Shown: piece after piece, positions 8,863-49,153 of the stretch
How the letters are laid out: each line of letters opens with the position of its first letter
Numbering within the stretch: position 1 is the stretch's first letter
Assembly (NCBI GenBank): GCA_964369675.1
Contig: CAYJHE010000001.1
Span: 1 to 54,958, forward strand
Length of the DNA stretch: 54,958 bases
DNA from: an uncultured Desulfovibrionaceae bacterium
GTDB taxonomy: Bacteria; Desulfobacterota; Desulfovibrionia; Desulfovibrionales; Desulfovibrionaceae
Direction of reading: 5' to 3'
Position numbers and translations under genes: made by a program
The notes under the pieces: model-generated
What the model saw: only the letters and a program-made list of their open reading frames with translations
Database searches by the model: none
Told to the model about the DNA's origin: nothing

Positions 8863-9022
8863 TTCATCACCTTATTTTATTCTAATTTATTTAGTAAAAG
8901 GTATACGCGAAACTTCGCATGCAAAGAATTAAACTTCTTGCTCAAATATCAAAAAATATTTCTTATTAACTTCTACTTACAATATAAATACTTATTTCTC
9001 AGACTAAAAAAATAGCTTGAAA

Positions 9023-9520
9023 TTATGTATTTCCCCAAAGAGTAAAAATTATGGCCTCAGGAAAAAATATATCAAGTAGGTATCTGAATATAAACCACAC
9101 TGCAAAAGTTATAATAAGTGAAATGGGGAGGGCATATTTCATGTAACCATAAATAGCAAGCGAAAATGTAAGCAATATAAAAACCGTGAGCTCAAAGCCA
9201 AGAAAGTAAAGACCTGGAATAAAAGCAATAAGTATTAAAAACAGAACAAAGCTTGAGCTTGGTACTGCAATAAAATCTATGACCTTATTTAATGAGAATG
9301 CATTATACCTAATAATACGATACATTGATGGCAGGCACGCTACAAGTGAAATAGATAAAGTTGTGAGGGGAAAAACTAATGGCCCAGAAATAAAATCTGC
9401 ATTTCCCTTTAACTGCACAATCCAAGGTGTGAACAAGATAACCGCGCTAAAAAACAAACCGAAAATGCAGGCGGCTAAGTCGTGTTCTTTTATCATGTCT
9501 TGTTTTTTTGCTTTTCTCAT
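9023..9520 (-). CDS. tctB: TTT small membrane subunit TctB
   Basis: A small, roughly 4-TM hydrophobic protein encoded between tctC and tctA. The call rests mainly on position and topology. Confidence 0.6.
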   Translation of the reverse strand: MRKAKKQDMIKEHDLAACIFGLFFSAVILFTPWIVQLKGNADFISGPLVFPLTTLSISLVACLPSMYRIIRYNAFSLNKVIDFIAVPSSSFVLFLILIAFIPGLYFLGFELTVFILLTFSLAIYGYMKYALPISLIITFAVWFIFRYLLDIFFPEAIIFTLWGNT

Positions 9521-9546
9521 ATCTGATTATATTCCTTATATACTAT

Positions 9547-9590
9547 CTATATCATGCTATGCCTTCTGCTTTAAACATAGCATGATATAG
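9547..9590 (-). promoter_or_regulatory. intercistronic stem-loop after tctC
   Basis: Perfect 15-bp arms CTATATCATGCTATG / CATAGCATGATATAG with a 14-nt loop, between the tctC stop (9601) and the tctB start (9520). Confidence 0.6.
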
Positions 9591-9600
9591 TAATTATTAT

Positions 9601-10578
9601 CTATTTTCCAAGTTCTAATTCTTTCACTATTTCTGTATAGAGAAGAACTTCTTCGTTAAAGCGTTTGCTTGCTTCTTCAGTTGTGCTTCCTACAGGGATA
9701 ACACCCATTTTTGTCATCATTTGAGTCAATTTTTCGCTTTTAAACACTTTCACAAAAGCAGCTCTGAACTTTTCAGCTACTTTAGGTGGTGTTCCTTTTG
9801 GTGCATATAAACCTGCCCATACTGCAAGTGAAGAACCAAAGCCTTGTTCACTTACTGTCGGCACATCAGGAAATGCTGTTGAGCGCTCAGGTAGGAGCAT
9901 TGCAATAATTTTCACTTCCTTGTTTTCTACATAGTCTTTTAATGGTGCAGCTGGCCCAGACATCACATCGGCACTATTTTGCAGCAAGACCAAAGGTGAT
10001 AAATCTTGAAATGTAATCGCTTTCCATTCAAAATTGCCTTCTTTAGCAATGTTTTCTGTCATAATATAACGCACGTCTCCAACACCGCCAATGCCAAGTC
10101 TGATTTGATTTGTTTGAGCATATTCAGCAAGTTCTTTTAAGTTTGAAAAAGGCGCGTCTGCCCTAGCTGTTACGGCTGTAGAATTGAAATAAAGAACACT
10201 TAAGGGCATGAGATCACTGGTTTTGTATGGAGCATTACCAAGTAAAACTTGAAGAATTGATGGGCCAATAGGACCAATACCAAATGTATAGCCATCAGGA
10301 CGGGAACGAGCCATTTCGTTAAAGCCTATAACTCCTGCGCCACCGACTTTGTTGAATATCTTAACAGGCACTCCAAGCTCATCCTCTAATTCAGAAAGCA
10401 TAGCTGTTACAATTGTTGTAGCAGTATCGCCTGATGGAGGCCAAGGAATGATAATTTGAATTGGCTTTCTTGGCCATTCAGCACGCGCAATCGTGCTCAT
10501 TGAGCAGAAGATTACAGCAAAGCTGAGGAAAACAAGAAAAGATTTTTTTAAAACCTGTTTAGAAAATAATGCATGCAT
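9601..10578 (-). CDS. tctC: TTT periplasmic substrate-binding protein TctC (Bug family)
   Basis: 325 aa with an N-terminal signal peptide (…STIARA/EWP) and a Bug/TctC-type start of the mature protein (WPxKPIxxIIPxxPGG-like). The SD is AGGAG. Confidence 0.85.
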   Translation of the reverse strand: MHALFSKQVLKKSFLVFLSFAVIFCSMSTIARAEWPRKPIQIIIPWPPSGDTATTIVTAMLSELEDELGVPVKIFNKVGGAGVIGFNEMARSRPDGYTFGIGPIGPSILQVLLGNAPYKTSDLMPLSVLYFNSTAVTARADAPFSNLKELAEYAQTNQIRLGIGGVGDVRYIMTENIAKEGNFEWKAITFQDLSPLVLLQNSADVMSGPAAPLKDYVENKEVKIIAMLLPERSTAFPDVPTVSEQGFGSSLAVWAGLYAPKGTPPKVAEKFRAAFVKVFKSEKLTQMMTKMGVIPVGSTTEEASKRFNEEVLLYTEIVKELELGK

Positions 10579-20341: not shown

Positions 20342-21475
20342 ATGAACATTGCATCGCAAGCCTTGCCTTCGTCTTATCCATTACTTATAAAGCCCGCTTC
20401 AAGTGCCTGTAATCTCAGATGTCAACACTGTTTTTATACTGAAAAGAAACTTTATGACATTCCAATGGGGCGTATGAGTGCTGAAACTTTAGAAAAATTG
20501 ATTACCGAATACGCCAAACTCCCATTACATAGTTATAATTTTATATGGCAGGGCGGTGAGCCAACACTTATGGGGCTTGATTTTTATAAACTTGCTATTA
20601 AGCTACAAAAAACACATTTACCTTCGCACGCTCCTGTTGAAAACTATCTACAAACAAATGCAAGCTTGATTGACGATGAATTTGCTGCATTTCTTAGCCA
20701 AGAAGATTTTTTAGTGGGTATAAGTATTGATGGGCAAGAAGATTTTCATAATCATTACAGAGTTTTTGCTGATGGAACTGGCTCATTCACAAGAGTAATG
20801 CAAAGCTATGAGCTTTTGAAAAAACATAAGGTAAAAACAAATGTTCTTACTCTTATAAGTTCCTATAATGTTGAACATATTGCAGAAATCTATTCATGGC
20901 TGAAGAGCGAAGATGTGATGTTTCAACAATATATTCCATGCGTTGAATTTAATGATGAAAATAAGCCTGAAAAATACAGTGTAACTCCAAAAGCATTTGG
21001 AAATGCGCTTTGTAGGCTTTTTGATGCATGGATAAAAGACAGATGTGTGGTGAATATCCGTTATTTTGAAGCCTTACTTCAAAGAATTATCCTAAACACG
21101 CCAGGCATGTGTCAATTTGGAAAGTCTTGCAAGCAATACGCTGTTGTTGAGCATAATGGCGACATTTATCCTTGCGACTTCTTTGTGGAAGAAAGATTAA
21201 TACTTGGAAATATTAAAGAACACACATTTGAAGAAATGATAAAAAGTAAAAAGTATGAAAAATTTAATAACGAGAAGACAAATTATTCTTTGAAATGTAA
21301 GCAATGCCAGTATCTTACTTTCTGTTTTGGAGATTGTCAAAAACATAGAATAAAGACAAAAAAGTCAAAATTACCGCATAGTTGGCTTTGTGAAGCATAT
21401 CAAATATTTTTTGCTTATGCATTACCAGAACTACAAAAAATTAGTGCGCCCTTACTTAGACATAAATTAAAATAA
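20342..21475 (+). CDS. anaerobic sulfatase-maturating enzyme (radical SAM / SPASM, anSME)
   Basis: CNLRCQHC (Cx3Cx2C) near the N-terminus and C-terminal SPASM Cys clusters (…CPCDFF…, CKQCQYLTFCFGDC). It lies adjacent to a Cys-type sulfatase gene. Confidence 0.85.
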   Translation: MNIASQALPSSYPLLIKPASSACNLRCQHCFYTEKKLYDIPMGRMSAETLEKLITEYAKLPLHSYNFIWQGGEPTLMGLDFYKLAIKLQKTHLPSHAPVENYLQTNASLIDDEFAAFLSQEDFLVGISIDGQEDFHNHYRVFADGTGSFTRVMQSYELLKKHKVKTNVLTLISSYNVEHIAEIYSWLKSEDVMFQQYIPCVEFNDENKPEKYSVTPKAFGNALCRLFDAWIKDRCVVNIRYFEALLQRIILNTPGMCQFGKSCKQYAVVEHNGDIYPCDFFVEERLILGNIKEHTFEEMIKSKKYEKFNNEKTNYSLKCKQCQYLTFCFGDCQKHRIKTKKSKLPHSWLCEAYQIFFAYALPELQKISAPLLRHKLK

Positions 21476-21581
21476 AAAGGCATTGCTTGTAATTTATCTT
21501 GCTTTTCGCAATGAGTTGAATATGCATTATCATACTACTCATTACGAAAAGCAAGGGGGAGAGGTGGCAAGCAATGCCTTT
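21476..21581. repeat. ~105-nt nested palindromic element / compound terminator between convergent genes
   Basis: Outer arms AAAGGCATTGCTTG (21476-21489) / CAAGCAATGCCTTT (21568-21581). Inner 19-bp arms at 21498-21516 / 21537-21555 have 1 mismatch. Confidence 0.75.
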
Positions 21582-21676
21582 TTATGCTTAGATGCACAGG
21601 CTGAACTTATGCATCTTTACAACTATCATTATTCACTTATTTCTAATTTGAAGAGATTGAGTGTGAATAAAAGAAT

Positions 21677-23167
21677 TTAGCCGAGTTTTTCAAGTTGTTT
21701 TAGGTTTCTTATAGCAAAGTAGATACTTAGAACAGTTAATATCCAGAATATAACTGTAATAGGACTTGAAACAAATATTTGGAATGAACCATTTGAGGTC
21801 AGAAGAGATTGTCTAAAGCTGTCTTCAACCATAGGTCCAAGAATAAATGCTATAACAAATGGAGCAGGTGGGACTTTAAGAATTTGCATAACAAATCCAA
21901 TAGCACCCATAATAAGCATCACATAAATATCGAAGTTTGCGTTATTAAGTGCAAAGCAACCAAAAACGCAGAAGGCAAGCACGATAGCAAATAATAAGTT
22001 TCTTGGGATAGAGTTAATCTTACTAAAAGCGCGTATAGCAACCTTACCAACAACAAACATACAAGGTGAGCTAAGCAAAATACCTATAAAAAGACTGTAT
22101 ACAATAACAGGATTTTCGGTAAAAAGAAGAGGTCCAGGTTTTATATCATGCACCATAAAAGCACCAAGCATGATAGCTGTAACAACGTCACCAGGCACAC
22201 CAAGAGAAAGAAGAGGCACTAATGTTGAACCAGCAACGCCATTGTTTCCTGCTTCCGCAGCAGCAACACCTTCAAGCGAGCCCTTACCATAGAGTTCTGG
22301 GTGTTTTGATGTTCTTCTTGCTTCTGTGTAGGAAAGAAAAGCAGAAGGAGTTGAACCAAGTCCTGGTATAGCACCTAGGATAACACCAATAAAACTGCCT
22401 CGAATGATAACACTTTTTGCTGCCCAAAATTCTTTGAAAGTAAGCGGAGCGCCTTGGCTCTCTGTTTGACTTGCCCTTTCTAGTTGTGGATCAGCTGGAC
22501 GTATGCTATTATTGAGGATTTCAGGCAAAGCAAATATTCCGATTAAAAGAGGAATAAATTCAATACCACTAAATAAGTTTGTCATTCCCATTGTCATACG
22601 CGGAAAACCATAGAGTAAGTCAAGACCTATAGTAGCACCAAATAAGCCAAGAGAAGCAGATATAACGCCATTTATTACATTTGTCCCAGACACACTTGCA
22701 ATAATTGTGAGTGAGAAAACTGCAAGAGTGAAGTATTCAGGTGGGCCAAAATCAAGCGCAAAAGAGGCTAGCCAACCAGCAAATAAAATCAAGGCTAAGT
22801 TTGAAATAACATCAGCTGTGATAGATGAGTACAAAGACATATCCAGAGCTTTACGAGAATTTCCTTGCTGGCTAAGTGGAAAACCATCTAAAATAGTACA
22901 TGCAGCTGCTGCAGTACCAGGTGTTTTAATTGTGATAGCTGTGATTGAGCCACCATAAGTGCCGCCTTTATAGATACCAAGTAATAAGAGAAGGCCAGTT
23001 ACTGGTTCTATATTAAAGGTGAAAGGCAAGGCAAGGGCAACAGCCATAACAACAGTCATGCCAGGAATTGCACCTATAGCAACACCAATAACAACACCTA
23101 AGAAAATAGCGAGAAAGTTAATTATGGTAAATGTAGCCGCAATACTTTGCAATAATATATCAAACAT
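21677..23167 (-). CDS. tctA: TTT large permease TctA (second copy)
   Basis: 496-aa polytopic protein, collinear with the first TctA (GAIPGMT… and GAIPGLGS motifs). Confidence 0.85.
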   Translation of the reverse strand: MFDILLQSIAATFTIINFLAIFLGVVIGVAIGAIPGMTVVMAVALALPFTFNIEPVTGLLLLLGIYKGGTYGGSITAITIKTPGTAAAACTILDGFPLSQQGNSRKALDMSLYSSITADVISNLALILFAGWLASFALDFGPPEYFTLAVFSLTIIASVSGTNVINGVISASLGLFGATIGLDLLYGFPRMTMGMTNLFSGIEFIPLLIGIFALPEILNNSIRPADPQLERASQTESQGAPLTFKEFWAAKSVIIRGSFIGVILGAIPGLGSTPSAFLSYTEARRTSKHPELYGKGSLEGVAAAEAGNNGVAGSTLVPLLSLGVPGDVVTAIMLGAFMVHDIKPGPLLFTENPVIVYSLFIGILLSSPCMFVVGKVAIRAFSKINSIPRNLLFAIVLAFCVFGCFALNNANFDIYVMLIMGAIGFVMQILKVPPAPFVIAFILGPMVEDSFRQSLLTSNGSFQIFVSSPITVIFWILTVLSIYFAIRNLKQLEKLG

Positions 23168-23170
23168 AGG

Positions 23171-23674
23171 TTACCTCCAATCCACAAAACCCAGTGGGAA
23201 ATAAACATCAGCAACATAAGTAAAGAAAAAGTAGAGTACCCACGGAGTCACGAGCATAACAAGGCTTGCGACAAGGTGAAACTTTTTTTCTGCTAAAAAA
23301 TAAAGGGCAAACATAACAATAGTTGCTACAATTGGAAGTCCTATAAGCTCAATATCAAAGAAGGAAACAAAGATAATCACAGCGCAAGCAAGAGATTTTT
23401 TAAAAATGTCTCTTACTTCTTCTGTGAGAAGTTCGCTTAATTTAAATTCTTGTTTCTTGAGAAGAATAATATGTTTTATTATTATAATAGTGGCTAATAT
23501 GCCAAGTAAGTATAATAATACCGATGGCCAAAATGCTGGAGATAAAAATACACTTTTCAGGTTTTTGGGAATAGAGATTTGATAGGGCACAAGGTAGGTA
23601 AGTCCAAAAATTGAAAAAAGTAAAATAGTTATTCCAAGTATAAGTTGTTTGATTGCTTCAAATATTGTATTCAC
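23171..23674 (-). CDS. tctB: TTT small membrane subunit TctB (second copy)
   Basis: 167-aa protein with about 4 TM segments, ending 4 nt before the tctA start. Called by position and topology. Confidence 0.55.
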   Translation of the reverse strand: MNTIFEAIKQLILGITILLFSIFGLTYLVPYQISIPKNLKSVFLSPAFWPSVLLYLLGILATIIIIKHIILLKKQEFKLSELLTEEVRDIFKKSLACAVIIFVSFFDIELIGLPIVATIVMFALYFLAEKKFHLVASLVMLVTPWVLYFFFTYVADVYFPLGFVDWR

Positions 23675-23750
23675 TTCATCTCTCCTAATTAGTCAAAAGC
23701 ATGTGAAGAAAAGGGGCAAGTGTTAATAAGCAAACACCTGCCCTTAATTA

Positions 23751-25334
23751 CTAGCTGTGACGAGGAACATCAACAGGCGTAGACGGAACAAAAGGCAAAC
23801 GCGTAAGCGCTTTTGTGAGGGCTGTGCTCGCCTGTGATCTAGAGCGTACATATTGTTTTGTAGCGTCCTTTACTACTTGATAATCCCACTCTGGATAGTT
23901 TGCACCAGGTTTTTGGAAGACTTTATTTTGCATAAATATACGTCTTTTTTGGCTAAGTTCGATGGTTTTTTGCAATGTTTCTAAATCCCATATTTCATGT
24001 AAAGCTTTTTGCATTTTTTCTAATTCATCTTTTTTAGATGGATCATTTACAAGATTATTTTGTTCTAGTGGGTCTGCATTCATATCAAAAAGCATTTCAG
24101 GATCGTCACCACAGTGGATAAATTTATATTGGTTACCGCGTATAATACATGCAGGTGCGTACACGCCTTCACCAGTAAACTCAATCGGAACAAGTCTTTG
24201 CTCTAATTCTTCTTTGCCATTGATAACATTTCTTAATGAAGTGCCTCTTAATTCTTCAACATAATCTAATTCTTTGGCTTCATCTACATAGTCAAGCAAG
24301 GTAGGAACAATATCTAGGTTTGAGACTGGATTTTTGATGTTTTGTCCACCTTTTGCGTCAGGAGTTTTTATAATATAAGGAACACGCACAGACCACTCAA
24401 ATGGATTAAACTTATACCACATTCCTCTTTCACCAAGCATATCACCGTGGTCTGCTGTGAAGATTATGATTGTATTTTCGTATTGATCTGTTTCTTTTAA
24501 AGCAGTTATCACACGACCAGCTAAATCATCTATATAGCTTGTCATTGCATAGTATGCGTGACGAGCTTTGCGTACATGGTCTTCTGTTATATAGTGTTCA
24601 TCTTGTCTGATAAGTTGATAATATCTTTTACTCCATGCATCACGCAATTCTGGCTCAATGTATTCAGCGTCTGGCATATTGATTTCTTCTTCTGTATACA
24701 TATCAAGATATTTTTGCTCAACAACATAAGGATTGTGTGGATTTGTAAAACTTGCTGTTAGGAAAAAAGGTTTTTTATCTTGTCTACGCGCAAGATCGTA
24801 AATCTTTTGTACTGCAGTATAGGCAACTTCTTCATCATGGTCTGTTTGCATACAGCGCTTGCAAGCACCAGCTTCAATAACACCACGCACTGTCATAACT
24901 GAAGGAGCAAATGGTTCATCTTGTTGTGCCCAGTCAGCAGTCCAACCATAGTCAGAAGGATAGATATCTGTATTGAGGCGGTCTTCATAACCGTGATTTT
25001 GATCAGCTCCAACAAAGTGCATCTTGCCTGTGAGTGTAGTTGTGTAGCCTAATGAAATAAGATAATGCCCTATTGTTGGTATTTCGCTGGCAAAAGGTGC
25101 GCCATTATCATAGGCACCCACTTCTGAAGAAAGAAGCCCAGTGAGCAAAGAAGCACGCGAAGGAGCACAAACAGGATTATTACAATAAGCATTTTCAAAG
25201 TTTACACCTTCTTTTGCTAATTGTTGTAAATTTGGAGCTTTTACAACAGGGTTGCCATTCATAGGCATTGCCATACCTGTTAGTTGGTCGGCCATAATTA
25301 ATACAATGTTTGGCTGATTTTGTTTTGTAGACAT
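23751..25334 (-). CDS. Cys-type (formylglycine) sulfatase, choline-sulfatase (BetC)-like, cytoplasmic
   Basis: NIVLIMADQL…CAPSRASLLTG is the FGly motif C-x-P-x-R. Also present are GKMH.VG.DQ.HG.E.RL.TDIYP.D.GWT and DHGDMLGERGMWYK. There is no signal peptide or Tat motif. Confidence 0.88.
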   Translation of the reverse strand: MSTKQNQPNIVLIMADQLTGMAMPMNGNPVVKAPNLQQLAKEGVNFENAYCNNPVCAPSRASLLTGLLSSEVGAYDNGAPFASEIPTIGHYLISLGYTTTLTGKMHFVGADQNHGYEDRLNTDIYPSDYGWTADWAQQDEPFAPSVMTVRGVIEAGACKRCMQTDHDEEVAYTAVQKIYDLARRQDKKPFFLTASFTNPHNPYVVEQKYLDMYTEEEINMPDAEYIEPELRDAWSKRYYQLIRQDEHYITEDHVRKARHAYYAMTSYIDDLAGRVITALKETDQYENTIIIFTADHGDMLGERGMWYKFNPFEWSVRVPYIIKTPDAKGGQNIKNPVSNLDIVPTLLDYVDEAKELDYVEELRGTSLRNVINGKEELEQRLVPIEFTGEGVYAPACIIRGNQYKFIHCGDDPEMLFDMNADPLEQNNLVNDPSKKDELEKMQKALHEIWDLETLQKTIELSQKRRIFMQNKVFQKPGANYPEWDYQVVKDATKQYVRSRSQASTALTKALTRLPFVPSTPVDVPRHS

Positions 25335-25417
25335 AAAAATTCCTTTTAATTTTGAAATAGATGAGAAAATTGCGTAAACAAAAAGACTAAAACAAATACG
25401 AATATTTTTTTAAGGTC

Positions 25418-25463
25418 TATTTCTTTCTCTTTGTTTTCTGAATAAAAGCAAAAGAGAAAGAAA
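25418..25463 (-). promoter_or_regulatory. intercistronic stem-loop after the second tctC
   Basis: ATTTCTTTCTCTTTG-(15 nt)-CAAAAGAGAAAGAAAT (one bulged A), between the tctC stop and the sulfatase start. Confidence 0.5.
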
Positions 25464-25491
25464 TTATTTTAATATGTATGTTAACTAATGC

Positions 25492-26457
25492 TTATTGATT
25501 GCCAAGCATACCTTTGAAAAGCTCGTATTGCTCTTCAACAAAAGCTGTAGCTTCTTCTTTAGAATTGATAGCAGGCACAGCTTCAACACTTGCTAAGTCA
25601 GCAAGCCATTCAGGGTCGCTAGCAACTTTTGCAAGAACTTCTGCCCATTTATCTAACACTTCTTTCGGAAGACCTTTAGGACCAGAAAGTGAACCCCAAG
25701 AAGTCATTTGTTCGAGCTGTGGATAACCAAGTTCTTTTACAGTTGGACATTGTGGGATATTTTTAAGTCTTTCAGTTGCTGTTACAGCAAGACAATTTAC
25801 TTGGCCAGCTTGAATTGGGCTCACAACAGGACTTGTGCCTTGCCATAAGAAACCAATGTGATTACCAATAACAGAAGTTGTTGCAACACCAGCGGCTTCA
25901 AAAGGAACAAGTCTGATTCTTTCGCTTGGCGCGTCAAATAAATCTAACATAAGATTAGCAGCTATATCATTAATTGTTGATGGTGCAGCTGTACCAAAAA
26001 CGATTTCTTTTTTACCAGTTTTAATTTCTTTTTCAAGTTCCTTGAAAGAATTTATACCACTTTTTGTTCCACCAATAAGTGCAAATGAGTGTTTTTGAAT
26101 GATTGTGATATGGTCAAAGCTATCCCAATTGTAAGGCACTTCTTCATAAAATGCAGGTGAAATAGCAACAGATGGAACCCAACCTAAAAGAAGTGTATAA
26201 CCATCAGGTTTTGCATTTGCAACAAATGCAGCACCTGTTACACCACCAGCACTTCCCATATTTGTGATTGTTATTTTAGGAAAATAAGGAGCCAAGGCTT
26301 TAGCAAGAAAACGCGCAGTTAAGTCTGCTTGTCCACCAGGGGCATAAGGCACGATAAGCTTGATTGGTTTTCTAGGATAATCTGCAAAAGCAGGGCTGGC
26401 AGCAAAAACAAAAGTAAAAAGCGACAGGATGCAAATGAATGATTTTATAAAACGCAT
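25492..26457 (-). CDS. tctC: TTT periplasmic substrate-binding protein TctC (second copy)
   Basis: 321 aa with a signal peptide (…SPAFA/DYP), then YPRKPIKLIVPYAPGGQAD, which is typical of Bug/TctC proteins. Confidence 0.85.
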   Translation of the reverse strand: MRFIKSFICILSLFTFVFAASPAFADYPRKPIKLIVPYAPGGQADLTARFLAKALAPYFPKITITNMGSAGGVTGAAFVANAKPDGYTLLLGWVPSVAISPAFYEEVPYNWDSFDHITIIQKHSFALIGGTKSGINSFKELEKEIKTGKKEIVFGTAAPSTINDIAANLMLDLFDAPSERIRLVPFEAAGVATTSVIGNHIGFLWQGTSPVVSPIQAGQVNCLAVTATERLKNIPQCPTVKELGYPQLEQMTSWGSLSGPKGLPKEVLDKWAEVLAKVASDPEWLADLASVEAVPAINSKEEATAFVEEQYELFKGMLGNQ

Positions 26458-43829: not shown

Positions 43830-44051
43830 TTATAATACAAGCACTATTCTTTGCACATTATTCTCAATATCTTCAACTTCTACCTTCCATTCGTGTTTTC
43901 TTGCTGCTCGTGTGATATTTTCAAAACTGGCTTCATTGTCAACAATAATGTGAAGTGGGCTTGTATCTTTTGCTGTGATATATGAGTTAACCATTAATAA
44001 AGGTTGTGGGCAAGAAAGGCCTCTTGTGTCTATAGTTGTAATTGCTGTCAT
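43830..44051 (-). CDS. TusA/SirA/YedF-family sulfurtransferase-like protein
   Basis: 73 aa with the family's conserved CPxP motif near the N-terminus (DTRGLSCPQPLL). Confidence 0.8.
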   Translation of the reverse strand: MTAITTIDTRGLSCPQPLLMVNSYITAKDTSPLHIIVDNEASFENITRAARKHEWKVEVEDIENNVQRIVLVL

Positions 44052-44055
44052 AAGT

Positions 44056-45144
44056 CTATCCTTTTCTTAAATAGGTAAAAGCGATTATCAAACAAAGTGC
44101 AAGTGAAATAAGCACAGCTGGAATGGAATAATTGCCTATACCAGTGCCACTTGCAGCCACTTGAAAGTTGTGCGCCATAGCTGTGCCAAGAAATGCGCCA
44201 AAAACAAAGACAGTGGCGTCATTATTTCCTTCGGCAGAAGCAACCAATTGCCTTGCAGGACAACCACCTGCAAGCACCAAGGCAAGCCCTACAACAAGCA
44301 TGGACAAGAAGTTCCACACTCCGTCACTATGCGCTACAGGCTGATTTTCAAAACCAAGATGAAAAGCTCCTACTATTAAATTGCCCACGAATATAGCAAG
44401 AAAGAAAAAAGCTAAGCCTATGAAAAGATGAAAGTATTTGAATAAGAAAATATCTCTAAGACCGCCTACAGTACAGAATCTGCTTCTTTGTGCAACAAAG
44501 CCAATAAATATGGCTATAGCCAAAGAAATAAACATGGGCGCATGCATAGAGCCAGGCCCTGAAATGGAATAAAAGATTATGTTATTTGCCGCCTTTCCCT
44601 CTTCTTGAGGGAAAGCAAAGTATAAGAGCAAGAGGCCAAGCATAAGTAAAGGCATAAGGTAGGCTGAAAAAGCCCTTTGATCGGTATTTCTGCCAAGGTC
44701 AAAACCTTTTTTAAAGAACAAACCGCCAATATACACACCGACAGTAAGCCCCGCAAAGCCAACAAGCGCGTTCAAATCACCACCTGCAAGGCGAATTACA
44801 GCCCTCCAAGGGCAGCCTAAGAAAACCAAAGCACAAATAGCTGCCATAAAACCTAAGGCAAAACGAATAGCAGGCGAAGAACCGCCTTTGGATTTGAAAT
44901 CTTTAAAAAGAACAGAAGCTAAAAAGGCGCCAAAAACTAGTCCCATAATTTCAGGACGAAGATATTGTACAATTGAAGCTCTGTGTAAACCCACTGCGCC
45001 GGCTATGTCGCGCTCAAAACAATAGGCGCAAAAGCCCATATTTGGGGGATTTCCTAAGTATTGTAAAACAACAACACACATACCAATAAGCGCGCCAGTG
45101 ATTGCAATGCCAGCAGTGCTTGAAAAGAAATTATTTTTAAACAT
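44056..45144 (-). CDS. yeeE: YeeE/YedE-family membrane protein (thiosulfate / sulfur- or selenium-compound transporter)
   Basis: 362 aa with about 9-10 TM segments and conserved Cys-containing segments (…FCAYCF…, …LGCPWR…, …RFCTVGG…, …GGCPARQ…) typical of the two 'sulphur transport' repeats. It lies directly upstream of the TusA-like gene. Confidence 0.85.
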   Translation of the reverse strand: MFKNNFFSSTAGIAITGALIGMCVVVLQYLGNPPNMGFCAYCFERDIAGAVGLHRASIVQYLRPEIMGLVFGAFLASVLFKDFKSKGGSSPAIRFALGFMAAICALVFLGCPWRAVIRLAGGDLNALVGFAGLTVGVYIGGLFFKKGFDLGRNTDQRAFSAYLMPLLMLGLLLLYFAFPQEEGKAANNIIFYSISGPGSMHAPMFISLAIAIFIGFVAQRSRFCTVGGLRDIFLFKYFHLFIGLAFFFLAIFVGNLIVGAFHLGFENQPVAHSDGVWNFLSMLVVGLALVLAGGCPARQLVASAEGNNDATVFVFGAFLGTAMAHNFQVAASGTGIGNYSIPAVLISLALCLIIAFTYLRKG

Positions 45145-45543
45145 ATATATCCTTGTTTTTAAAATTAAATAAAAAAACCTGTCTTAAACAGGCTTAGCAA
45201 GGATATTTGTAGACAGAAGTTATATAATTCTATCAACAAAAGAGCATTTCAAATTTTCATTTAAATACCCTAATTTATAAGAAAAAGCTTATGATGAAAA
45301 TTTTACTCAGCGCACACATTCAAGATTATATCTTGAAAAATGCCAAACCTGCGAGACAACACCACCTGTGTGCCATGCAAAGCTTGTCAAGTAAAATGAT
45401 TAATCATAATGCCTCCTTATAAAGAGAGTATAATTTAAAGAAAAAGCTTTGTCAATTTTCACATCTCATAATTTTTCTTGTGTCTTTTTGCCATTCAGTA
45501 TATGAATCTTTTGTCAGTTTAACAAAGATTTTAAGGAATATAT

Positions 45544-45780
45544 ATGTCATTTTCAATAAATAAAGCCTTTGTGCTTGCGCGTATGGAAGCAAAAAGAGGC
45601 ATCGAAACCACAATTAAATGCGAAAAATGTAATGAAAACATGCTTATAGGCAGAACATGAACAGATGTTTCTTTATGGTGCAAGGCTTGCACTCACCCAA
45701 TGACAGTTGAAGAAGCTGTGCCTCTTATGGACGATGTTATGGAAAACTTCCTAGAGCGCGTTTACTGCGATAGAATTTAG
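45544..45780 (+). CDS. candidate small selenoprotein (zinc-ribbon-like, in-frame TGA at 45658-45660)
   Basis: An SD (AAGGAA) lies 6 nt before the ATG. The frame stays open on both sides of a single TGA. The product has CEKC-x16-CKAC with the TGA codon between the knuckles. A stem-loop lies 16 nt downstream of the TGA, and a perfect terminator follows only after the second stop (TAG 45778-45780). Confidence 0.4.
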
Positions 45781-45806
45781 AACACTTTCAATTATTAAAA
45801 ACGCTC

Positions 45807-45840
45807 AAAAAAAAAGCTCGAATAATTCGAGCTTTTTTTA
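45807..45840. terminator. bidirectional intrinsic terminator
   Basis: AAAAAAAAGCTCGAAT-A-ATTCGAGCTTTTTTT: perfect 9-bp stem with an A-run and a T-run. It serves the small + strand ORF and the convergent skp. Confidence 0.85.
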
Positions 45841-45931
45841 ATTATATCTTAGATAATAAATTCAATATCTTTGTGGATTTTTCATCAAAAATTAATTTTT
45901 AGCAGAAAAAGCGCAAGAGTTTTAAATTTAT

Positions 45932-46471
45932 TTAGTCAGCGAACTTTGCGCCTTTTTCTTTCCAAAGCTTATTCACTTCAGTTAAAATGCCTTGTGAAAC
46001 GTCAACTGTTTCAGATGCATACGCAACAGAAGCACTGCCGTCAATCAAAATATCAAGCTTATTTGCTTTAGAATAGTTCACGCAAGCAGCACGAACAATG
46101 TCAAGGATTTCTGTTTGTTTTGCTTGTTGCACAGGACCGATTTTTTGAGCAAATGCAGCACGCTTTTCTTCAAAAGCACGCACTTCTTTTTCTAAAGCAG
46201 TAGCTTTAGACTTTCTTGCGCTTTCAGACAAAGCAGCTGCTTGTTTTTGAAATTCTTCAGTCTTCTTTTGAATTGTTTCAGCGTCTTTCATCAATTTTGT
46301 TCTTTCTGTACCAAACTTTGAATCAAGAAAGCCTTCTAAAGCCTTAGCAGGTTCTGAATTTTGTGTCACGCCTGTGAGATTAAAAACTGCTATATTAGCT
46401 GCAAGAGCTGCATTAGAAAGAAGTAAAACTGCCACAAATGATATACATATTTTTATAAAAGTGCTACGCAT
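45932..46471 (-). CDS. skp: OmpH/Skp-family periplasmic chaperone
   Basis: 179 aa with a signal peptide (…SNAALA/AN) and a long coiled-coil-like K/E/A-rich body typical of Skp. Confidence 0.85.
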   Translation of the reverse strand: MRSTFIKICISFVAVLLLSNAALAANIAVFNLTGVTQNSEPAKALEGFLDSKFGTERTKLMKDAETIQKKTEEFQKQAAALSESARKSKATALEKEVRAFEEKRAAFAQKIGPVQQAKQTEILDIVRAACVNYSKANKLDILIDGSASVAYASETVDVSQGILTEVNKLWKEKGAKFAD

Positions 46472-46724
46472 TGACGTAAGTCCCGATATTTCTGTTTAAT
46501 ATTATGCCTCAAAATCAAGGAAAGGTTTTCAGCCAAGCAATAAAGTAGTATAGTCACACAGCATTGTCAAGTTTTTTCACTTTATTCAATAAAGCAAATC
46601 ACTTTATTCCAATTAATTTAAAAATGTAAACAAGCATTTCAATTTATTGTTCGTAGATTGATTTTCTATGAGAACAGTCTAGCACTTTTAAGGCGAAACA
46701 ATAGTTAAGCGAAACTTAAAACTA

Positions 46725-48038
46725 TTACTGTACTTTCTTTCTCACGCCAAGCACATTTGGAACAGCCATAGCAATATTTGAAAAAGGAGTATTGCGCACA
46801 ATTCCTGCTATAAAATACTGATTTTCTGAAGTTTTTAAATATAAACCTGCTTCACTGCCGCCTTCTGCGTAGAGCAAACTATTTAGGCTCAAGCCTTCGC
46901 TTGACAAGGAAAGTATGTAGCTTCCAAATTCAAACACAGATAAAGGCGCTCTTGAAAAAATAAAGTAAATATTTCCTTCAATATCTTCACCATAAGAAGC
47001 TATAGAAAATTTATTTTCATCTTGTTCCCAAAGAAGTTCACATTCTTGTGTATCTTCGCTATAATTTCCAAGTATTCTGAAATTTTGTATGACGACTTCA
47101 TAAGAATCTAAATACTCGTCTAATTTATTTCTGCTTTCTTCATCACTTTGATTGAGATTTTCTTCAATACTGCTTTGCACAATGCCTTCTTTCTTTGATT
47201 TAGAAAAGAAGAAGCCATTCATTTTTTCTGCCATTTTTCCATTGTTAATATCAGCACCAGAACGCATATAGCCATTAGAAGTTTTATTGTCAGGTAAGTA
47301 CATTGAGGCATTTATCGCAACTTGCAAGCCTTTGTCTAAAGCCCAAGAGCGAACGGATTTGCTCTCACTTTGATCTATAAAAGAGCCATACAAATCTATT
47401 TCATGATAGGCTGTATTTATGCGAATTATGTGCACATCTACATCAAGAGCAAGCTTATCTAAAAAAAACTTCTCTTTTTTATTGACATAATCAAGCCCTT
47501 TATCAATTTCTCGCCATGCTAATTTATTTTCATCGAGTGCATTTTGTGGAGACTCTATAATTTCTTGAATATGTTCTATATCTAAAATTTCTTCTTTTTC
47601 TTCTGCAGTTACAAGTTCAGAATCTTGCTGTTTTTTGATTTCTGAAACAGGAATCTTCACAAGAATTTCCTCTTCGGAGTTCTGCAAATTATTTGAAAAA
47701 GTAATACTGCCTTCTATACTGGAATCATTTACAATAAGAGCTTTTTTTTCTTTCTTTGTTTCTTGTATTTGAGAATCTACTTGCACTTGTGCTTGCACGT
47801 CTTTTGTTTTATTTTCTTGCGTGTGAACATGCTCTTGCTTTTCTTGTTTTTCATTAGACGTCAATAAAGACAAGTCTAAACTCATGTCGCTATCTTGCAT
47901 AAATGTAGTTTGAATCAACATATACACGCATATAAGCAAAAATATAACTATGCCAAACAAAACTTTCTTCAAAAGACTTAACCCTATACAATTCACATAT
48001 ATAACATATGTTTTTCTAAATGTAGTTCTATGAACCAT
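46725..48038 (-). CDS. membrane-anchored protein with a Q/E/K-rich linker and a C-terminal DUF2233 / phosphodiester-glycosidase-like domain
   Basis: One N-terminal TM segment. The C-terminal ~230 aa shows a DUF2233-like pattern (…INASMYLPDN…, …AEGGSEAGLYL…). Assigned from memory only. Confidence 0.4.
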   Translation of the reverse strand: MVHRTTFRKTYVIYVNCIGLSLLKKVLFGIVIFLLICVYMLIQTTFMQDSDMSLDLSLLTSNEKQEKQEHVHTQENKTKDVQAQVQVDSQIQETKKEKKALIVNDSSIEGSITFSNNLQNSEEEILVKIPVSEIKKQQDSELVTAEEKEEILDIEHIQEIIESPQNALDENKLAWREIDKGLDYVNKKEKFFLDKLALDVDVHIIRINTAYHEIDLYGSFIDQSESKSVRSWALDKGLQVAINASMYLPDNKTSNGYMRSGADINNGKMAEKMNGFFFSKSKKEGIVQSSIEENLNQSDEESRNKLDEYLDSYEVVIQNFRILGNYSEDTQECELLWEQDENKFSIASYGEDIEGNIYFIFSRAPLSVFEFGSYILSLSSEGLSLNSLLYAEGGSEAGLYLKTSENQYFIAGIVRNTPFSNIAMAVPNVLGVRKKVQ

Positions 48039-48175
48039 CTAAAACTCATTATAGCAAAGACTTAGGAATAAGCAATATATTTTATCAAAGCATTAAATTT
48101 TTCTTTTTTTTTCTTGTAATTCAAATTGGATTTATCTATACTTTCAAAAAATTCAACCCTATATAGGAATAGTAC

Positions 48176-49153
48176 ATGTTAAAATTTTTCTCACAAAGAT
48201 GTTTTGTTTCACTAATTTTCTGTTTTTCTTTAATCCTTGTTTCAACACAAGCTCATGCAGAAAAAAGATTTTCTATTGGAACAGCGGGCATTTCAGGAGT
48301 GCTCTACCCTTTTGGCGTATCTCTTGCACAAACAATAACCAAGCACACTGACATGCAAGCAACAGGCGAATCAAGTGCAGGCTCAATTGAAAACATAAGA
48401 AACCTCACTACAGGCAAAACAGCAATCGCTTTTTCACAAAACCAAAATGCAACACAGGCCTATGAAGGCACACATGTGTATAAAAACAGATCTGCCCCAG
48501 ATTTACGCTCTATTATGGCTACCTTAGTTTCCTATATGCATATATTTGTACCAAAAGATTCTGAAGTTTCATCTATCAAAGAGCTAAAGGGCAAAAGAGT
48601 TTCTGTTGGTGCAGCAGGAAGCGGTGGCGAAGTTGATACAAGAATGTTGCTTGAATTTTATGACCTAGATTATAGTAAAATCAAGCCACAATTTATTCCA
48701 GAATCTGAAGCTATTTCAGCCCTCAAAGACGGCAGAATTGACGCTATTATAGCAACCCACCCGTTAAATAGTACTGCTATGACTGAACTTACACAATCAA
48801 TGGATCTAAAACTCCTTCCTATAGCAGACGATTCTTTTTATACAAAGTACCCCTACTTCACAAAGGGCACAATTGAAAGCGGCACTTATCCGCATATAGA
48901 CACAGACACTTACGCACCGCGTATTGTTTCTGCTCTCTTCACAAGCACAAATTCAAATCTCACAGATGACGAAGTCTATCAAATCACAAAAGCTATTTGG
49001 GAAAATGAAAGTGAGTGGATTAATGTGCACGCAAGTGTCACTAAGAATGTAAGCTTAAAAAACGCTCTTTCAGGTTTAATCATTCCTCTTTCAAAGGGCG
49101 CGCTTAAGTATTACGAAGAAATAGGCGTAGACGTACCTAAACATTTGAAATAG
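48176..49153 (+). CDS. TAXI-family TRAP-type solute-binding protein (orphan; no TRAP permease nearby)
   Basis: Signal peptide (…TQAHA/EK), then FSIGTAGISGVLYPFG, which matches the TAXI GTGGxxGxYYPxG start. The size (325 aa) is typical. Confidence 0.75.
   Translation: MLKFFSQRCFVSLIFCFSLILVSTQAHAEKRFSIGTAGISGVLYPFGVSLAQTITKHTDMQATGESSAGSIENIRNLTTGKTAIAFSQNQNATQAYEGTHVYKNRSAPDLRSIMATLVSYMHIFVPKDSEVSSIKELKGKRVSVGAAGSGGEVDTRMLLEFYDLDYSKIKPQFIPESEAISALKDGRIDAIIATHPLNSTAMTELTQSMDLKLLPIADDSFYTKYPYFTKGTIESGTYPHIDTDTYAPRIVSALFTSTNSNLTDDEVYQITKAIWENESEWINVHASVTKNVSLKNALSGLIIPLSKGALKYYEEIGVDVPKHLK

What the first reader, a model, noticed from the sequence alone, without database searches (positions are those of the whole stretch)
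45544..45780. Unannotated small ORF with an in-frame TGA and a SECIS-like hairpin: candidate new selenoprotein next to yeeE/tusA
The ATG at 45544 has a good SD. The frame runs 38 codons to TGA (45658-45660) and continues for 39 more codons to TAG (45778-45780). A perfect intrinsic terminator follows about 35 nt after the TAG.

The conceptual product is MSFSINKAFVLARMEAKRGIETTIKCEKCNENMLIGRT-[TGA]-TDVSLWCKACTHPMTVEEAVPLMDDVMENFLERVYCDRI. The TGA sits between the two knuckles of a zinc-ribbon-like C-x2-C-x16-C-x2-C, so a true stop would discard the second knuckle. There is no start codon or SD for an independent second ORF until well past it.

Sixteen nt 3' of the TGA is a stem-loop, GGUGCA-AGGCU-UGCACU (45677-45693). 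Its GG-containing apical loop lies about 23-27 nt from the UGA. As I recall, that is within the range described for bacterial SECIS elements.

TGA is a normal stop elsewhere in the window (adhE, the diguanylate cyclase), so this is not a TGA-reassigned genome.

The ORF is divergent from YeeE/YedE-TusA/YedF. Comparative genomics has linked that gene pair to selenium utilisation, and biochemistry has linked it to thiosulfate uptake. The ORF track missed the gene because each half is under 60 aa.
Basis: partly seen in the sequence, partly recalled or inferred. Interest (0 to 1): 0.8.

Follow-up and report, generated by a model that had tools for sequence, protein, structure and literature searches.

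The report
Small dual-CXXC selenoprotein gene
This is a real 78-codon gene whose in-frame UGA almost certainly encodes selenocysteine, but it belongs to an already catalogued family of small zinc-ribbon-like (seleno)proteins of unknown function, so the call is correct rather than new.

Summary
The ORF at 45544-45780 (+), its in-frame TGA (45658-45660) and the hairpin at 45677-45693 are all as described.

With Cys in place of the TGA, the product scores 58.6 bits (cut-off 40) on NCBIfam NF041197, "dual CXXC motif small (seleno)protein". This is the OS_HP3 family predicted by Zhang and Gladyshev in 2007.

- **Cys/Sec pairing:** 21 full-length homologues have an invariant Cys where this gene has TGA.
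- **Conserved TGA:** a 79%-identical orthologue (L057) keeps the TGA. dN/dS downstream of it is 0.09.
- **More TGA-bearing members:** a metagenome pattern scan found 24 more.
- **SECIS:** all 26 TGA-bearing genes share the hairpin at the same distance from UGA. Pairing is 94%, the first loop base is an invariant G, and pairs 21-35 and 26-30 covary. The hairpin is built from the codons of the second CxxC motif.

The selenoprotein reading is therefore well supported. "New" is not, and the link to yedE/tusA is not conserved in relatives. Protein function is unknown. The Sec machinery could not be checked within the window.

In passing, the yedE leader on the opposite strand carries a conserved 6-codon mini-ORF ending in UGA, a SECIS-like hairpin and a covarying antiterminator/terminator. 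I found no published description of it. It may be a Sec-decoding-dependent attenuator.

The parts
45533..45537 (+). Shine-Dalgarno AAGGA, 6 nt before the ATG
   Evidence: Read directly from the sequence.
45544..45780 (+). CDS of the 78-residue dual-CXXC small selenoprotein: MSFSINKAFVLARMEAKRGIETTIKCEKCNENMLIGRT-U-TDVSLWCKACTHPMTVEEAVPLMDDVMENFLERVYCDRI, ending in stop TAG
   Evidence: NF041197 scores 58.6 bits against a cut-off of 40. Homologues span the TGA. Codon usage is gene-like. dN/dS against L057 is 0.17 upstream and 0.09 downstream of the TGA.
45658..45660 (+). UGA read as selenocysteine (residue 39, motif R-T-U)
   Evidence: It aligns with an invariant Cys in 21 Cys-form homologues. 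The same TGA is present in orthologue L057 and in 24 metagenomic members.
45677..45693 (+). SECIS upper stem-loop. It has 7 bp in this genome, with apical loop GGC at 45684-45686 closed by an A-U pair (AGGCU). It is made of the codons W-C-K-A-C-T of the second CxxC motif.
   Evidence: In alignment A2 of 26 Sec-form genes, 94% of cells pair, against 30-49% for slid controls. No shuffle of 500 reaches this. Pairs 21-35 (GC/CG) and 26-30 (AU/GC) covary. RNAalifold predicts the same hairpin. As an internal control, the first CxxC pairs at only 62.5%.
45619..45630 (+). First CxxC knuckle (C26, C29)
   Evidence: Alignments A1 and A3.
45679..45690 (+). Second CxxC knuckle (C46, C49). Both Cys codons are TGC.
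   Evidence: In Sec forms, 52 of 52 codons at this motif are TGC.
45809..45839 (.). Bidirectional intrinsic terminator (A-run, 14-bp stem, T-run) shared by this gene and the convergent skp gene

Best explanation
45544-45780 is one gene, for a 78-residue Sec-containing member of the "dual CXXC motif small (seleno)protein" family (NCBIfam NF041197, formerly OS_HP3).

**Recoding (inferred from comparative data).** Translation starts at ATG 45544. UGA at codon 39 is decoded as selenocysteine by SelB-GTP-Sec-tRNA(Sec). SelB is recruited by the SECIS stem-loop at 45677-45693. Its apical loop, (A)GGC(U), starts 22-23 nt after the UGA. The SECIS is written into the codons of the second CxxC motif: UGC-ARG-NNY-UGC is nearly self-complementary. 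This forces TGC codons and a Lys/Arg/Gly residue (codons AAG, AGG or GGG) after the first of those two Cys.

**Protein (predicted).** The fold is a four-stranded zinc ribbon followed by two helices. The two CxxC knuckles presumably hold a metal. The Sec lies in the R-x-U turn between strands 2 and 3. I infer an exposed selenol acting as a redox or ligand-binding centre, possibly together with the semi-conserved C-terminal Cys of the YCDR motif. The biochemical function is unknown.
For: **Family membership and the Sec/Cys pair**
- NF041197 scores 58.6 bits against a cut-off of 40 over the whole 53-position model.
- An exhaustive HMMER search found 28 hits at E <= 0.001. Of these, 23 are full-length proteins of 66-102 aa, and the 21 aligned all have Cys opposite the TGA.
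- NCBI names one member of the P0004 cluster "dual CXXC motif small (seleno)protein [Bilophila sp.]".

**The TGA is conserved and the downstream half is translated**
- Orthologue L057 is 79% identical and has TGA at the same codon. Its downstream peptide is conserved: TDVTLWCKACTNKMTLEEAVPFMDDIMESFLERVYCDRM.
- Downstream of the TGA, dS is 1.3 and dN/dS is 0.09.
- A DNA pattern scan specified only RxU, the second CxxC and D, E, F, R. It returned 24 genuine members with TGA. All of them also have the unspecified first CxxC and a stop codon directly after DR[VLM].

**The hairpin is a conserved SECIS**
- It is present in all 26 Sec-form genes at a fixed distance from the UGA.
- 94% of cells pair. 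Loop position G27 is invariant and position 28 is G or U. No shuffle of 500 reaches the observed pairing or covariation, and slid controls pair at 30-49%.
- Three Cys-form genes pair in only 13 of 24 cells, use TGT codons and do not fold into the hairpin.
- The first CxxC of the same genes pairs at 62.5%.
- The residue after the first Cys of motif 2 is K, R or G in 26 of 26 Sec forms, against 1 of 21 Cys forms.
- The hairpin meets the published bSECIS constraints quoted.

**Context**
- This is the only TGA-bridged coding-like ORF pair in the window.
- The adjacent gene scores 443 bits on TIGR04112, "YedE family putative selenium transporter", which indicates a selenium-using organism.
- AlphaFold, run on Cys-form homologue P0004 with the family alignment, gives pLDDT 79 and a zinc ribbon plus two helices.
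Against: - No selA, selB, selC or selD lies in the 55-kb window. Sec-decoding capacity is therefore inferred, not shown.
- There is no protein-level evidence.
- The window's own fold energy around the hairpin is no better than shuffles.
- Part of the hairpin's conservation is confounded with the conserved CxxC motif, and the 26 sequences fall into only a few clades.
- The functional role of the Sec and the metal-binding role of the knuckles are inferred from the motif and the model only. PDB searches gave only generic zinc-ribbon matches at E > 0.1 or E about 1e-3.
Confidence: 0.9

Rival explanations
1. A decaying pseudogene. A Cys-form gene (TGC or TGT) suffered a nonsense mutation to TGA, so only a 38-residue fragment, or nothing, is made.
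For: TGC to TGA is a single change. Public gene calls list only the truncated 38-aa (P0002) and 42-aa (P0008) ORFs.
Against: - The same TGA is kept in L057 across dS of about 1, with dN/dS of 0.09 downstream.
- It is also kept in 24 other diverged members, none of which has a further lesion.
- A SECIS with covariation follows it.
Confidence: 0.03
2. A sequencing or assembly error at 45658-45660. The true codon is TGC, TGT or TGG.
For: The source appears to be a metagenome-assembled genome. Its relatives are MAGs.
Against: - Independent assemblies carry TGA at the identical codon.
- Sec-form-specific features co-occur with it here: both Cys codons of the second motif are TGC, the following residue is Lys (AAG), and the loop contains GG.
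Confidence: 0.01
3. The UGA is decoded, but not as Sec. It could be read through by near-cognate Trp or Cys tRNA. Alternatively it is a true stop, and the downstream half is expressed separately from ATG 45700.
For: The Sec machinery was not observed in the window. An ATG exists at 45700.
Against: - The aligned residue in homologues is invariantly Cys, never Trp.
- TGA terminates 3 ordinary genes here.
- There is no SD before 45700, and L057 also shows no independent-start signature.
- The conserved region is continuous across the TGA, and residues 40-52, which lie before M53, are under purifying selection.
- The hairpin meets the SECIS constraints.
Confidence: 0.04
4. Not a gene at all. The open frames and the hairpin are chance features of a long intergenic region.
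For: Each half is short. Local folding is not exceptional.
Against: There is a family HMM hit, dozens of homologues, gene-like codon usage and evidence of purifying selection.
Confidence: 0.01

Closest known systems
NCBIfam NF041197 'dual CXXC motif small (seleno)protein', formerly OS_HP3 (Zhang & Gladyshev, NAR 2007, PMC1976440). Listed with motif RxU in PMC13188914.
   Same: - Same size class and the same C-x2-C ... R-x-U/C ... C-x2-C architecture.
- Same C-terminal [FY][LM]E..Y.DR[ILVM] end.
- The HMM score is above the curated cut-off.
- Sec sits at the family's Sec/Cys position, and a SECIS sits in the family's conserved place.
   Different: - The N-terminal extension is longer (25 residues before the first Cys, against about 12-17) and is shared only with L057.
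- The host is AT-rich (36% GC).
- It has Trp before the second CxxC, Thr after it, and Thr-Asp after the Sec.
- Nothing here departs from the family definition.
Bacterial SECIS elements (E. coli fdhF/fdnG type; bSECISearch consensus as quoted in PMC13188914)
   Same: - A stem-loop inside the coding region immediately 3' of UGA.
- A 3-5 nt apical loop whose first unpaired base is G, followed by G or U.
- 22-23 nt between the UGA and the loop.
- It fits the N1-G-[G/U]-N-N2 loop pattern.
   Different: - The upper stem is short in this genome (7 bp), with no bulged U.
- The stem is encoded by a CxxC motif, so RNA and protein constraints coincide.
- SelB binding has not been tested.
Other small Cys-rich zinc-ribbon (seleno)proteins, such as the FmdB-family putative regulatory protein (UxxU, listed in PMC13188914), and mammalian MsrB1/SelR (two CxxC zinc ligand pairs plus a catalytic Sec). 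The MsrB1 comparison is from my own knowledge and is a lead only.
   Same: Two CxxC knuckles that probably bind zinc, plus one extra Sec/Cys that could be the reactive centre.
   Different: - No sequence or significant fold similarity was found.
- The Sec here is not inside a CxxC/UxxC redox motif. It stands alone in an R-x-U turn.

Membership tests
NF041197 dual CXXC motif small (seleno)protein (OS_HP3) | Score at or above the curated HMM cut-off (40 bits) over the full model | tested here: met
   58.6 bits, E = 4.9e-16, model positions 1-53 of 53, with U replaced by C.
NF041197 dual CXXC motif small (seleno)protein (OS_HP3) | Two CxxC motifs flanking a central R-x-(U/C) | tested here: met
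   C26-x2-C29, R37-T-U39 and C46-x2-C49. These columns are invariant or nearly invariant in alignments A1 and A3.
NF041197 dual CXXC motif small (seleno)protein (OS_HP3) | Small protein (about 60-80 aa) ending in the conserved acidic helix plus [YF]xDR[ILVM]-COOH | tested here: met
   78 aa. D63, E67, F69 and R77 are conserved, and the stop follows R-I directly.
NF041197 dual CXXC motif small (seleno)protein (OS_HP3) | Sec actually incorporated at the UGA | not testable with these tools
   Needs 75Se labelling or mass spectrometry.
Bacterial SECIS (bSECISearch model quoted in PMC13188914) | Apical loop of 3-9 nt on an upper stem of 4-16 bp | tested here: met
   The loop is GGC (or AGGCU if the A-U pair is open). 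The stem is 7 bp in the window and 7-8 bp in relatives.
Bacterial SECIS (bSECISearch model quoted in PMC13188914) | G in the first two loop positions | tested here: met
   Column 27 is G in 26 of 26 sequences, and column 28 is G or T.
Bacterial SECIS (bSECISearch model quoted in PMC13188914) | 16-37 nt between the UGA and the apical loop | tested here: met
   23 nt (columns 4-26), identical in all 26 sequences.
Bacterial SECIS (bSECISearch model quoted in PMC13188914) | MFE of -7.5 kcal/mol or lower | tested here: inconclusive
   The first 60 nt from the UGA fold at -13.2 kcal/mol and a 61-nt stretch at -10.5. The bare hairpin is only -5.8, and the fold is no better than shuffles (z = 0.22).
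Bacterial SECIS (bSECISearch model quoted in PMC13188914) | Structure conserved with compensatory changes among Sec-form orthologues and relaxed in Cys forms | tested here: met
   - 94% paired.
- Pair 21-35 is GC in 11 and CG in 10 sequences. Pair 26-30 is AU in 11 and GC in 9.
- No shuffle of 500 reaches the observed values.
- Cys forms pair in 13 of 24 cells.
- The first CxxC control pairs at 62.5%.
Sec-decoding trait of the host genome | selA, selB, selC (tRNA-Sec) and selD present | not testable with these tools
   None lies in the 55-kb window. The only tRNA is Asn, and the Pfam/NCBIfam scans of the large ORFs found no sel genes. The rest of the genome is not available. Indirect support comes from the TIGR04112 YedE gene and a second UGA+SECIS-like context in its leader.

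The most novel reading that the evidence does not exclude
The gene could be one arm of a selenium-responsive divergent unit. It would share its roughly 90-bp promoter region with yedE-tusA. The yedE leader itself uses a UGA codon, a SECIS-like hairpin and an antiterminator/terminator to sense Sec-decoding capacity. On this reading the small selenoprotein would work with YedE/TusA in selenium import, trafficking or sensing, for example as a selenol carrier or as a reporter of selenium status. It would not be an unrelated neighbour.
Probability: 0.1. Interest if true: 0.7.

Novelty: new member of a known kind. Interest (0 to 1): 0.3.

Why it matters
- **Annotation.** The gene is a true selenoprotein gene that ordinary gene callers truncate. 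Public collections hold only the 38-aa and 42-aa stubs. It should be annotated with a Sec transl_except.
- **The family.** The comparative set assembled here (26 Sec forms against 21 Cys forms) gives unusually clean evidence that the family's SECIS is built from the codons of the second CxxC motif. It also shows that the RNA dictates a protein residue (K, R or G). This is a neat case of overlapping RNA and protein constraint. It does not reveal a new kind of system, and the protein's function stays unknown.
- **The lead nearby.** The more valuable observation is the Sec-codon leader in front of yedE. If it is real, it would be a direct sensor of selenium status controlling a putative selenium importer.

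Tried and rejected
- **Word-index protein search with the 78-aa product:** no hit. The exhaustive HMMER search was needed.
- **Exact look-ups of the window's YedE and of P0002:** not on record.
- **Synteny test:** tblastn and blastn of the small ORF against the three closest yedE loci (L001-L003) found nothing. DNA similarity stops at window position 45420. The yedE adjacency is therefore not conserved.
- **Neighbour clustering around the 24 metagenomic members:** no neighbour is shared across clades. Naive ORF calling in the GC-rich contigs is noisy.
- **Contexts of Cys forms:** short contigs, uninformative.
- **Rfam:** only tRNA-Asn at gathering thresholds. At E <= 10 in 45100-45900 there were only terminator-driven sub-threshold hits.
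- **Pfam on the product:** only sub-threshold zinc-ribbon hits.
- **Structure prediction:** I ran the Cys-form homologue P0004 instead.
- **PDB searches:** Foldseek and the sequence-profile search gave only generic zinc ribbons, so no functional inference was possible.
- **The two-gene reading (second ORF from ATG 45700):** rejected. There is no SD, and conservation runs continuously across the TGA.
- **Covariance model of the yedE leader:** searched against Veillonella, Helicobacter, Bacillota and Planctomycetota yedE loci, with no significant hit. A candidate in L054 (E = 7.8) was inspected and dismissed.
- **Covariation in the leader's upper hairpin:** not significant with five sequences.

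Full report
**1. Observation**

- ATG at 45544 follows an AAGGA box with a 6-nt spacer.
- There are 38 sense codons, then TGA at 45658-45660, then 39 more in-frame codons to TAG at 45778-45780.
- The hairpin G-GUGCA-AGGCU-UGCAC-U lies at 45677-45693 and is the centroid structure of the region.
- A strong terminator lies at 45809-45839. It has an A-run on one side and a T-run on the other, so it also terminates the convergent skp gene (45932-46471, - strand; Pfam OmpH).
- TGA is a normal stop for 3 of 40 large ORFs, including adhE and the GGDEF gene.

The site is not a chance feature.
- I scanned all six frames of the window for a TGA flanked on both sides by at least 25 open codons with gene-like codon usage. 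Only this site came back.
- I compared both halves with stop-free stretches from non-coding frames of the window's own genes. Only 3.9% of controls score as high as the N-half, and only 0.8% as high as the C-half.
- On this one sequence the hairpin's energy is unremarkable (z = 0.22 against shuffles).

**2. What it is**

The fast word-index search found nothing. An exhaustive HMMER search of 1.8 billion representative proteins found 28 hits.
- Two are the truncated stubs: P0002, which is this window's 38-aa ORF, and P0008, a 42-aa ORF from a relative.
- Twenty-three are full-length proteins of 66-102 residues whose matches cover query residues 15-20 to the C-terminus, that is, across the TGA.
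- The remaining three are long proteins (1133-1904 aa) with several short matches each, which I did not examine.
- In the 21 Cys-form homologues I aligned, the TGA falls on an invariant Cys. The pattern is C-x2-C-x7-R-x-C-x6-C-x2-C, followed by a conserved acidic helix and a [YF]xDR[ILVM] C-terminus.

With Cys in place of the stop, the product scores 58.6 bits (cut-off 40) over the whole NCBIfam model NF041197, "dual CXXC motif small (seleno)protein". NCBI gives that name to a member of the P0004 cluster from Bilophila.

The literature search shows the family is already known. It is "OS_HP3", predicted as a selenoprotein in the Olavius symbiont metagenome in 2007 (PMC1976440). A 2026 review lists it with the Sec motif RxU (PMC13188914). 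The window has R-T-U.

**3. Is the TGA really decoded?**

Three independent lines say yes.

(a) The orthologue keeps it. P0008 lies on L057, a Desulfovibrionaceae MAG contig (CAYJAZ010000015.1). Its DNA has TGA at the same codon, followed in frame by TDVTLWCKACTNKMTLEEAVPFMDDIMESFLERVYCDRM and a stop. Between the two genes dS is about 1. dN/dS is 0.17 before the TGA and 0.09 after it. The downstream half is therefore translated.

(b) Many other members keep it. I scanned metagenome contigs with a DNA pattern specifying only R-x-TGA, the second CxxC and D, E, F, R at family spacing. It returned 49 loci. Twenty-four are unmistakable family members. All of them also carry the first CxxC and a stop codon immediately after DR[VLM], neither of which was in the pattern. 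The rest are chance matches.

(c) The SECIS is conserved.
- Columns 19/20-26 pair with columns 30-36/37, and 94% of cells pair.
- Slid controls pair at 30-49%, and none of 500 column shuffles reaches the observed pairing or covariation.
- Two pairs swap cleanly: pair 21-35 (GC in 11, CG in 10) and pair 26-30 (AU in 11, GC in 9).
- RNAalifold predicts the same helix without guidance.
- The first loop base is G in all 26, and the next is G or U.
- The loop starts 23 nt after the UGA.
- These features match the published bacterial SECIS constraints.

**4. Controls for the obvious confound**

The hairpin is made of the W/R-C-x-x-C-x codons, so protein conservation could mimic RNA conservation. Four controls argue against that.
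- The first CxxC of the same 26 genes, scored in the same register, pairs at only 62.5%. It uses TGT in 9 of 52 Cys codons. The second motif uses TGC in 52 of 52.
- Three Cys-form genes pair in 13 of 24 cells, use TGT and do not fold into the hairpin.
- The residue after the first Cys of motif 2 is K, R or G (codons AAG, AGG, GGG, which supply the loop Gs) in 26 of 26 Sec forms. Only 1 of 21 Cys forms has one of these residues. Here the RNA requirement dictates an amino acid.
- Between the window and L057, the six codons forming the hairpin have no synonymous change, while about 60% of synonymous sites elsewhere downstream differ.

Caveat: the 26 sequences fall into a handful of clades, so the shuffle statistics overstate independence.

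**5. How it most likely works**

*Shown by comparison:* this is one ORF, with a conserved UGA at a Cys position and a conserved SECIS at canonical distance.

*Inferred from established knowledge of bacterial Sec insertion:* SelB-GTP-Sec-tRNA(Sec) binds the apical part of the hairpin and delivers Sec when the UGA reaches the A site.

*Predicted for the protein:* AlphaFold on a Cys-form homologue with the family alignment gives a confident small fold (pLDDT 79). It has four short strands and two C-terminal helices. The CxxC knuckles sit between strands 1/2 and 3/4, as in zinc ribbons. The Sec/Cys sits in the turn after strand 2.
- PDB fold and sequence searches return only generic zinc ribbons: T4 primase, RPC10, the ATCase regulatory chain and YfgJ. 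None is significant enough to transfer a function.
- My working model is a metal-stabilised ribbon presenting an exposed selenol for redox or ligand chemistry, perhaps with the semi-conserved Cys of YCDR. This is inference only.

**6. What I could not confirm**

- **Sec machinery.** The window holds no selA, selB, selC or selD. Its only tRNA is Asn. Pfam and NCBIfam scans of essentially all large ORFs show transporters, adhE, a 2-oxoacid:ferredoxin oxidoreductase, sulfatase and arylsulfotransferase genes, FtsK and others. The genome's Sec-decoding trait is inferred from three things: the neighbouring TIGR04112 "YedE family putative selenium transporter" (443 bits), the family data, and general knowledge that Desulfovibrionaceae commonly use Sec.
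- **The link to yedE/tusA.** The three closest yedE loci (87-88% YedE identity) share DNA with the window only up to 45420 and have other genes beyond that point. In L057 the orthologue sits directly after a cystine/glutamine-type ABC permease and ATPase, while the skp-NAGPA-TAXI genes on its other side are syntenic with the window. The metagenomic members have clade-specific neighbours, including a membrane protein, argJ and proB. The adjacency here looks like a local rearrangement.

**7. Comparison and novelty**

The gene passes every testable defining feature of NF041197/OS_HP3 and of the bacterial SECIS model. It is a new member of a known, purely computationally defined family, and gene callers have missed it. 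What this analysis adds is the SECIS-in-CxxC architecture with its protein footprint. Interest for the finding itself is modest.

**8. A by-product worth a separate look: the yedE leader**

Aligning the yedE leader (- strand) with L001-L003 showed an almost invariant block amid diverged sequence. In order along the - strand it contains:
- a promoter-like TTGACA-17-TATACT at 45455-45427;
- a perfect SD, AAGGAGG, at 45418-45412;
- ATG at 45407 and six codons (MINHFT);
- UGA at 45389-45387;
- 12 nt later, a hairpin GGCACAC-AGGUG-GUGU(U)GUC at 45374-45355, with a GGU-containing loop that starts 19 nt after the UGA;
- a segment X at 45350-45344, which can pair either with the 7 nt just after the UGA (a lower SECIS stem) or with the 5' arm of a terminator at 45195-45175, about 30 nt before the yedE start.

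The frame stays open after the UGA for 15-58 codons, but neither its length nor its sequence is conserved. That argues for a regulatory leader rather than a protein.

The same element occurs upstream of yedE in other loci.
- It is in L112, where YedE is 59% identical.
- A covariance model built from five sequences then found it in two newly fetched loci, again directly upstream of yedE: L118 (47 bits, E = 1e-8) and L119 (22 bits, E = 1.4e-3).
- In L119 both arms of the hairpin differ (AUUGCAC-UGGUG-GUGUGAU).
- GC-rich Desulfovibrio and Bilophila loci have analogous short ORFs ending in UGA with GGU/GGC-loop hairpins 21-22 nt downstream. I picked these by eye, and they are weaker evidence.

X and the terminator 5' arm covary.
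- In every one of the seven loci they form 10-12 bp.
- Matched pairs average -15.0 kcal/mol, against -10.4 for mismatched loci. The true matching is the best of all 5040 permutations.

Negative or weak results:
- Covariation inside the upper hairpin is not significant with five sequences.
- The model does not hit Veillonella, Helicobacter or other yedE loci.
- Four literature searches on the selenoprotein family, YedE and Sec-linked leader or attenuator regulation found no description of such an element.

My reading is a ribosome-mediated attenuator in which the regulatory codon is UGA(Sec). I put it at roughly even odds.
- A ribosome waiting at the UGA melts the lower stem and frees X. X then pairs with the terminator arm and lets transcription run into yedE.
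- Prompt Sec insertion moves the ribosome on, so the terminator forms.
- The UGA-C context, which is a weak terminator context, fits this.
- The sign of the regulation is inferred.

The closest known analogues, from my own knowledge, are amino-acid leader-peptide attenuators such as trpL and the SelB-binding SECIS-like element in the E. coli selAB 5' region (Thanbichler and Böck 2002).

Noticed in passing
window 45455-45145, - strand. Promoter-like 45455-45427; SD 45418-45412; mini-ORF ATG 45407; UGA 45389-45387; hairpin 45374-45355; segment X 45350-45344; leader ORF stop 45305-45303; terminator 45195-45175. The same element is at L001 3680-3759, L002 3661-3740, L003 3417-3495, L112 2274-2350, L118 429-502 and L119 164-228.: The leader of yedE (a putative selenium transporter) carries a strongly conserved mini-ORF (MINHFT) ending in an in-frame UGA. 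A SECIS-like hairpin follows, with an AGGUG loop 19 nt after the UGA.

Next comes a segment X that is complementary both to the bases just after the UGA and to the 5' arm of a downstream intrinsic terminator.
- X and the terminator arm covary across 7 loci. The true matching is the best of 5040 permutations.
- A covariance model built from 5 sequences found 2 new loci, again just upstream of yedE.
- The peptide after the UGA is not conserved.
- The four paper searches I ran found no description.

It may be a Sec-decoding-dependent transcription attenuator, that is, a selenium-status sensor. Covariation inside the upper hairpin is not significant with 5 sequences. There was no hit in Veillonella or other phyla.
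   Followed up: partly
L113 2273-2340, L115 2287-2350, L117 about 2294-2360: GC-rich Desulfovibrio and Bilophila yedE operons (yedE-tusA-DUF3343/Se_S_carrier-Carb_kinase) have 0.3-1.4 kb gene-free leaders. These contain short ORFs that end in UGA (MRYIFG-U, MVFLYL-U, MLYARY-U). Hairpins with GGU or GGC loops follow 21-22 nt downstream. They are possible analogues of the AT-rich-clade leader, but I picked them by eye and the covariance model did not detect them.
   Followed up: partly
window 45679-45690 and the equivalent codons in L057-L106: The SECIS leaves a footprint on the protein. In Sec-form family members the residue after the first Cys of the second CxxC is always K, R or G (codons AAG, AGG, GGG, which supply the loop Gs), and both Cys codons are always TGC. 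Cys-form members have almost any residue there (1 of 21 is K) and use TGT freely.
   Followed up: yes
window 43830-45144 compared with L112-L119: The yedE operon here is cut down to yedE plus a 73-aa TusA-like gene. That gene scores only 47.5 bits on the YedF model TIGR03527, whose cut-off is 110. Other Desulfovibrionaceae continue with a DUF3343/Se_S_carrier gene and a Carb_kinase gene. In the window a glycosyltransferase gene on the other strand follows instead.
   Followed up: no
L057 3544-5249 compared with window 45544-49153: In the orthologous locus the small selenoprotein gene starts 8 nt after a cystine/glutamine-type ABC permease and ATPase pair and looks co-transcribed with them. The skp, NAGPA-domain and TAXI-TRAP genes on the other side are syntenic with the window. 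The yedE-tusA cassette in the window therefore appears to have been brought next to the gene by rearrangement.
   Followed up: partly
window 45809-45839: The "perfect terminator" after the ORF is symmetric (A7-stem-T7+). It is equally well placed to terminate the convergent skp gene, so it is not specific evidence for the small ORF.
   Followed up: yes
window 5045-6481, 7366-10578 and 20342-26457: The window carries two TctA/TctC tripartite tricarboxylate transporter sets, a sulfatase, a radical-SAM/SPASM protein (likely a sulfatase maturase), an arylsulfotransferase-family protein and a SulP sulfate permease. This suggests use of sulfated organic substrates by this AT-rich (about 36% GC) Desulfovibrionaceae-like organism.
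   Followed up: no
L001 2950-3310: Upstream of yedE in the closest relative there are short ORF fragments resembling an IS3-type transposase OrfA, for example MEQLTRQEVSIISQCYRMKELKKENARLKKMYAETQLKYEIIQKALEKKW. That locus's leader terminator also looks degenerate. Both fit recent rearrangement around yedE in this clade.
   Followed up: no
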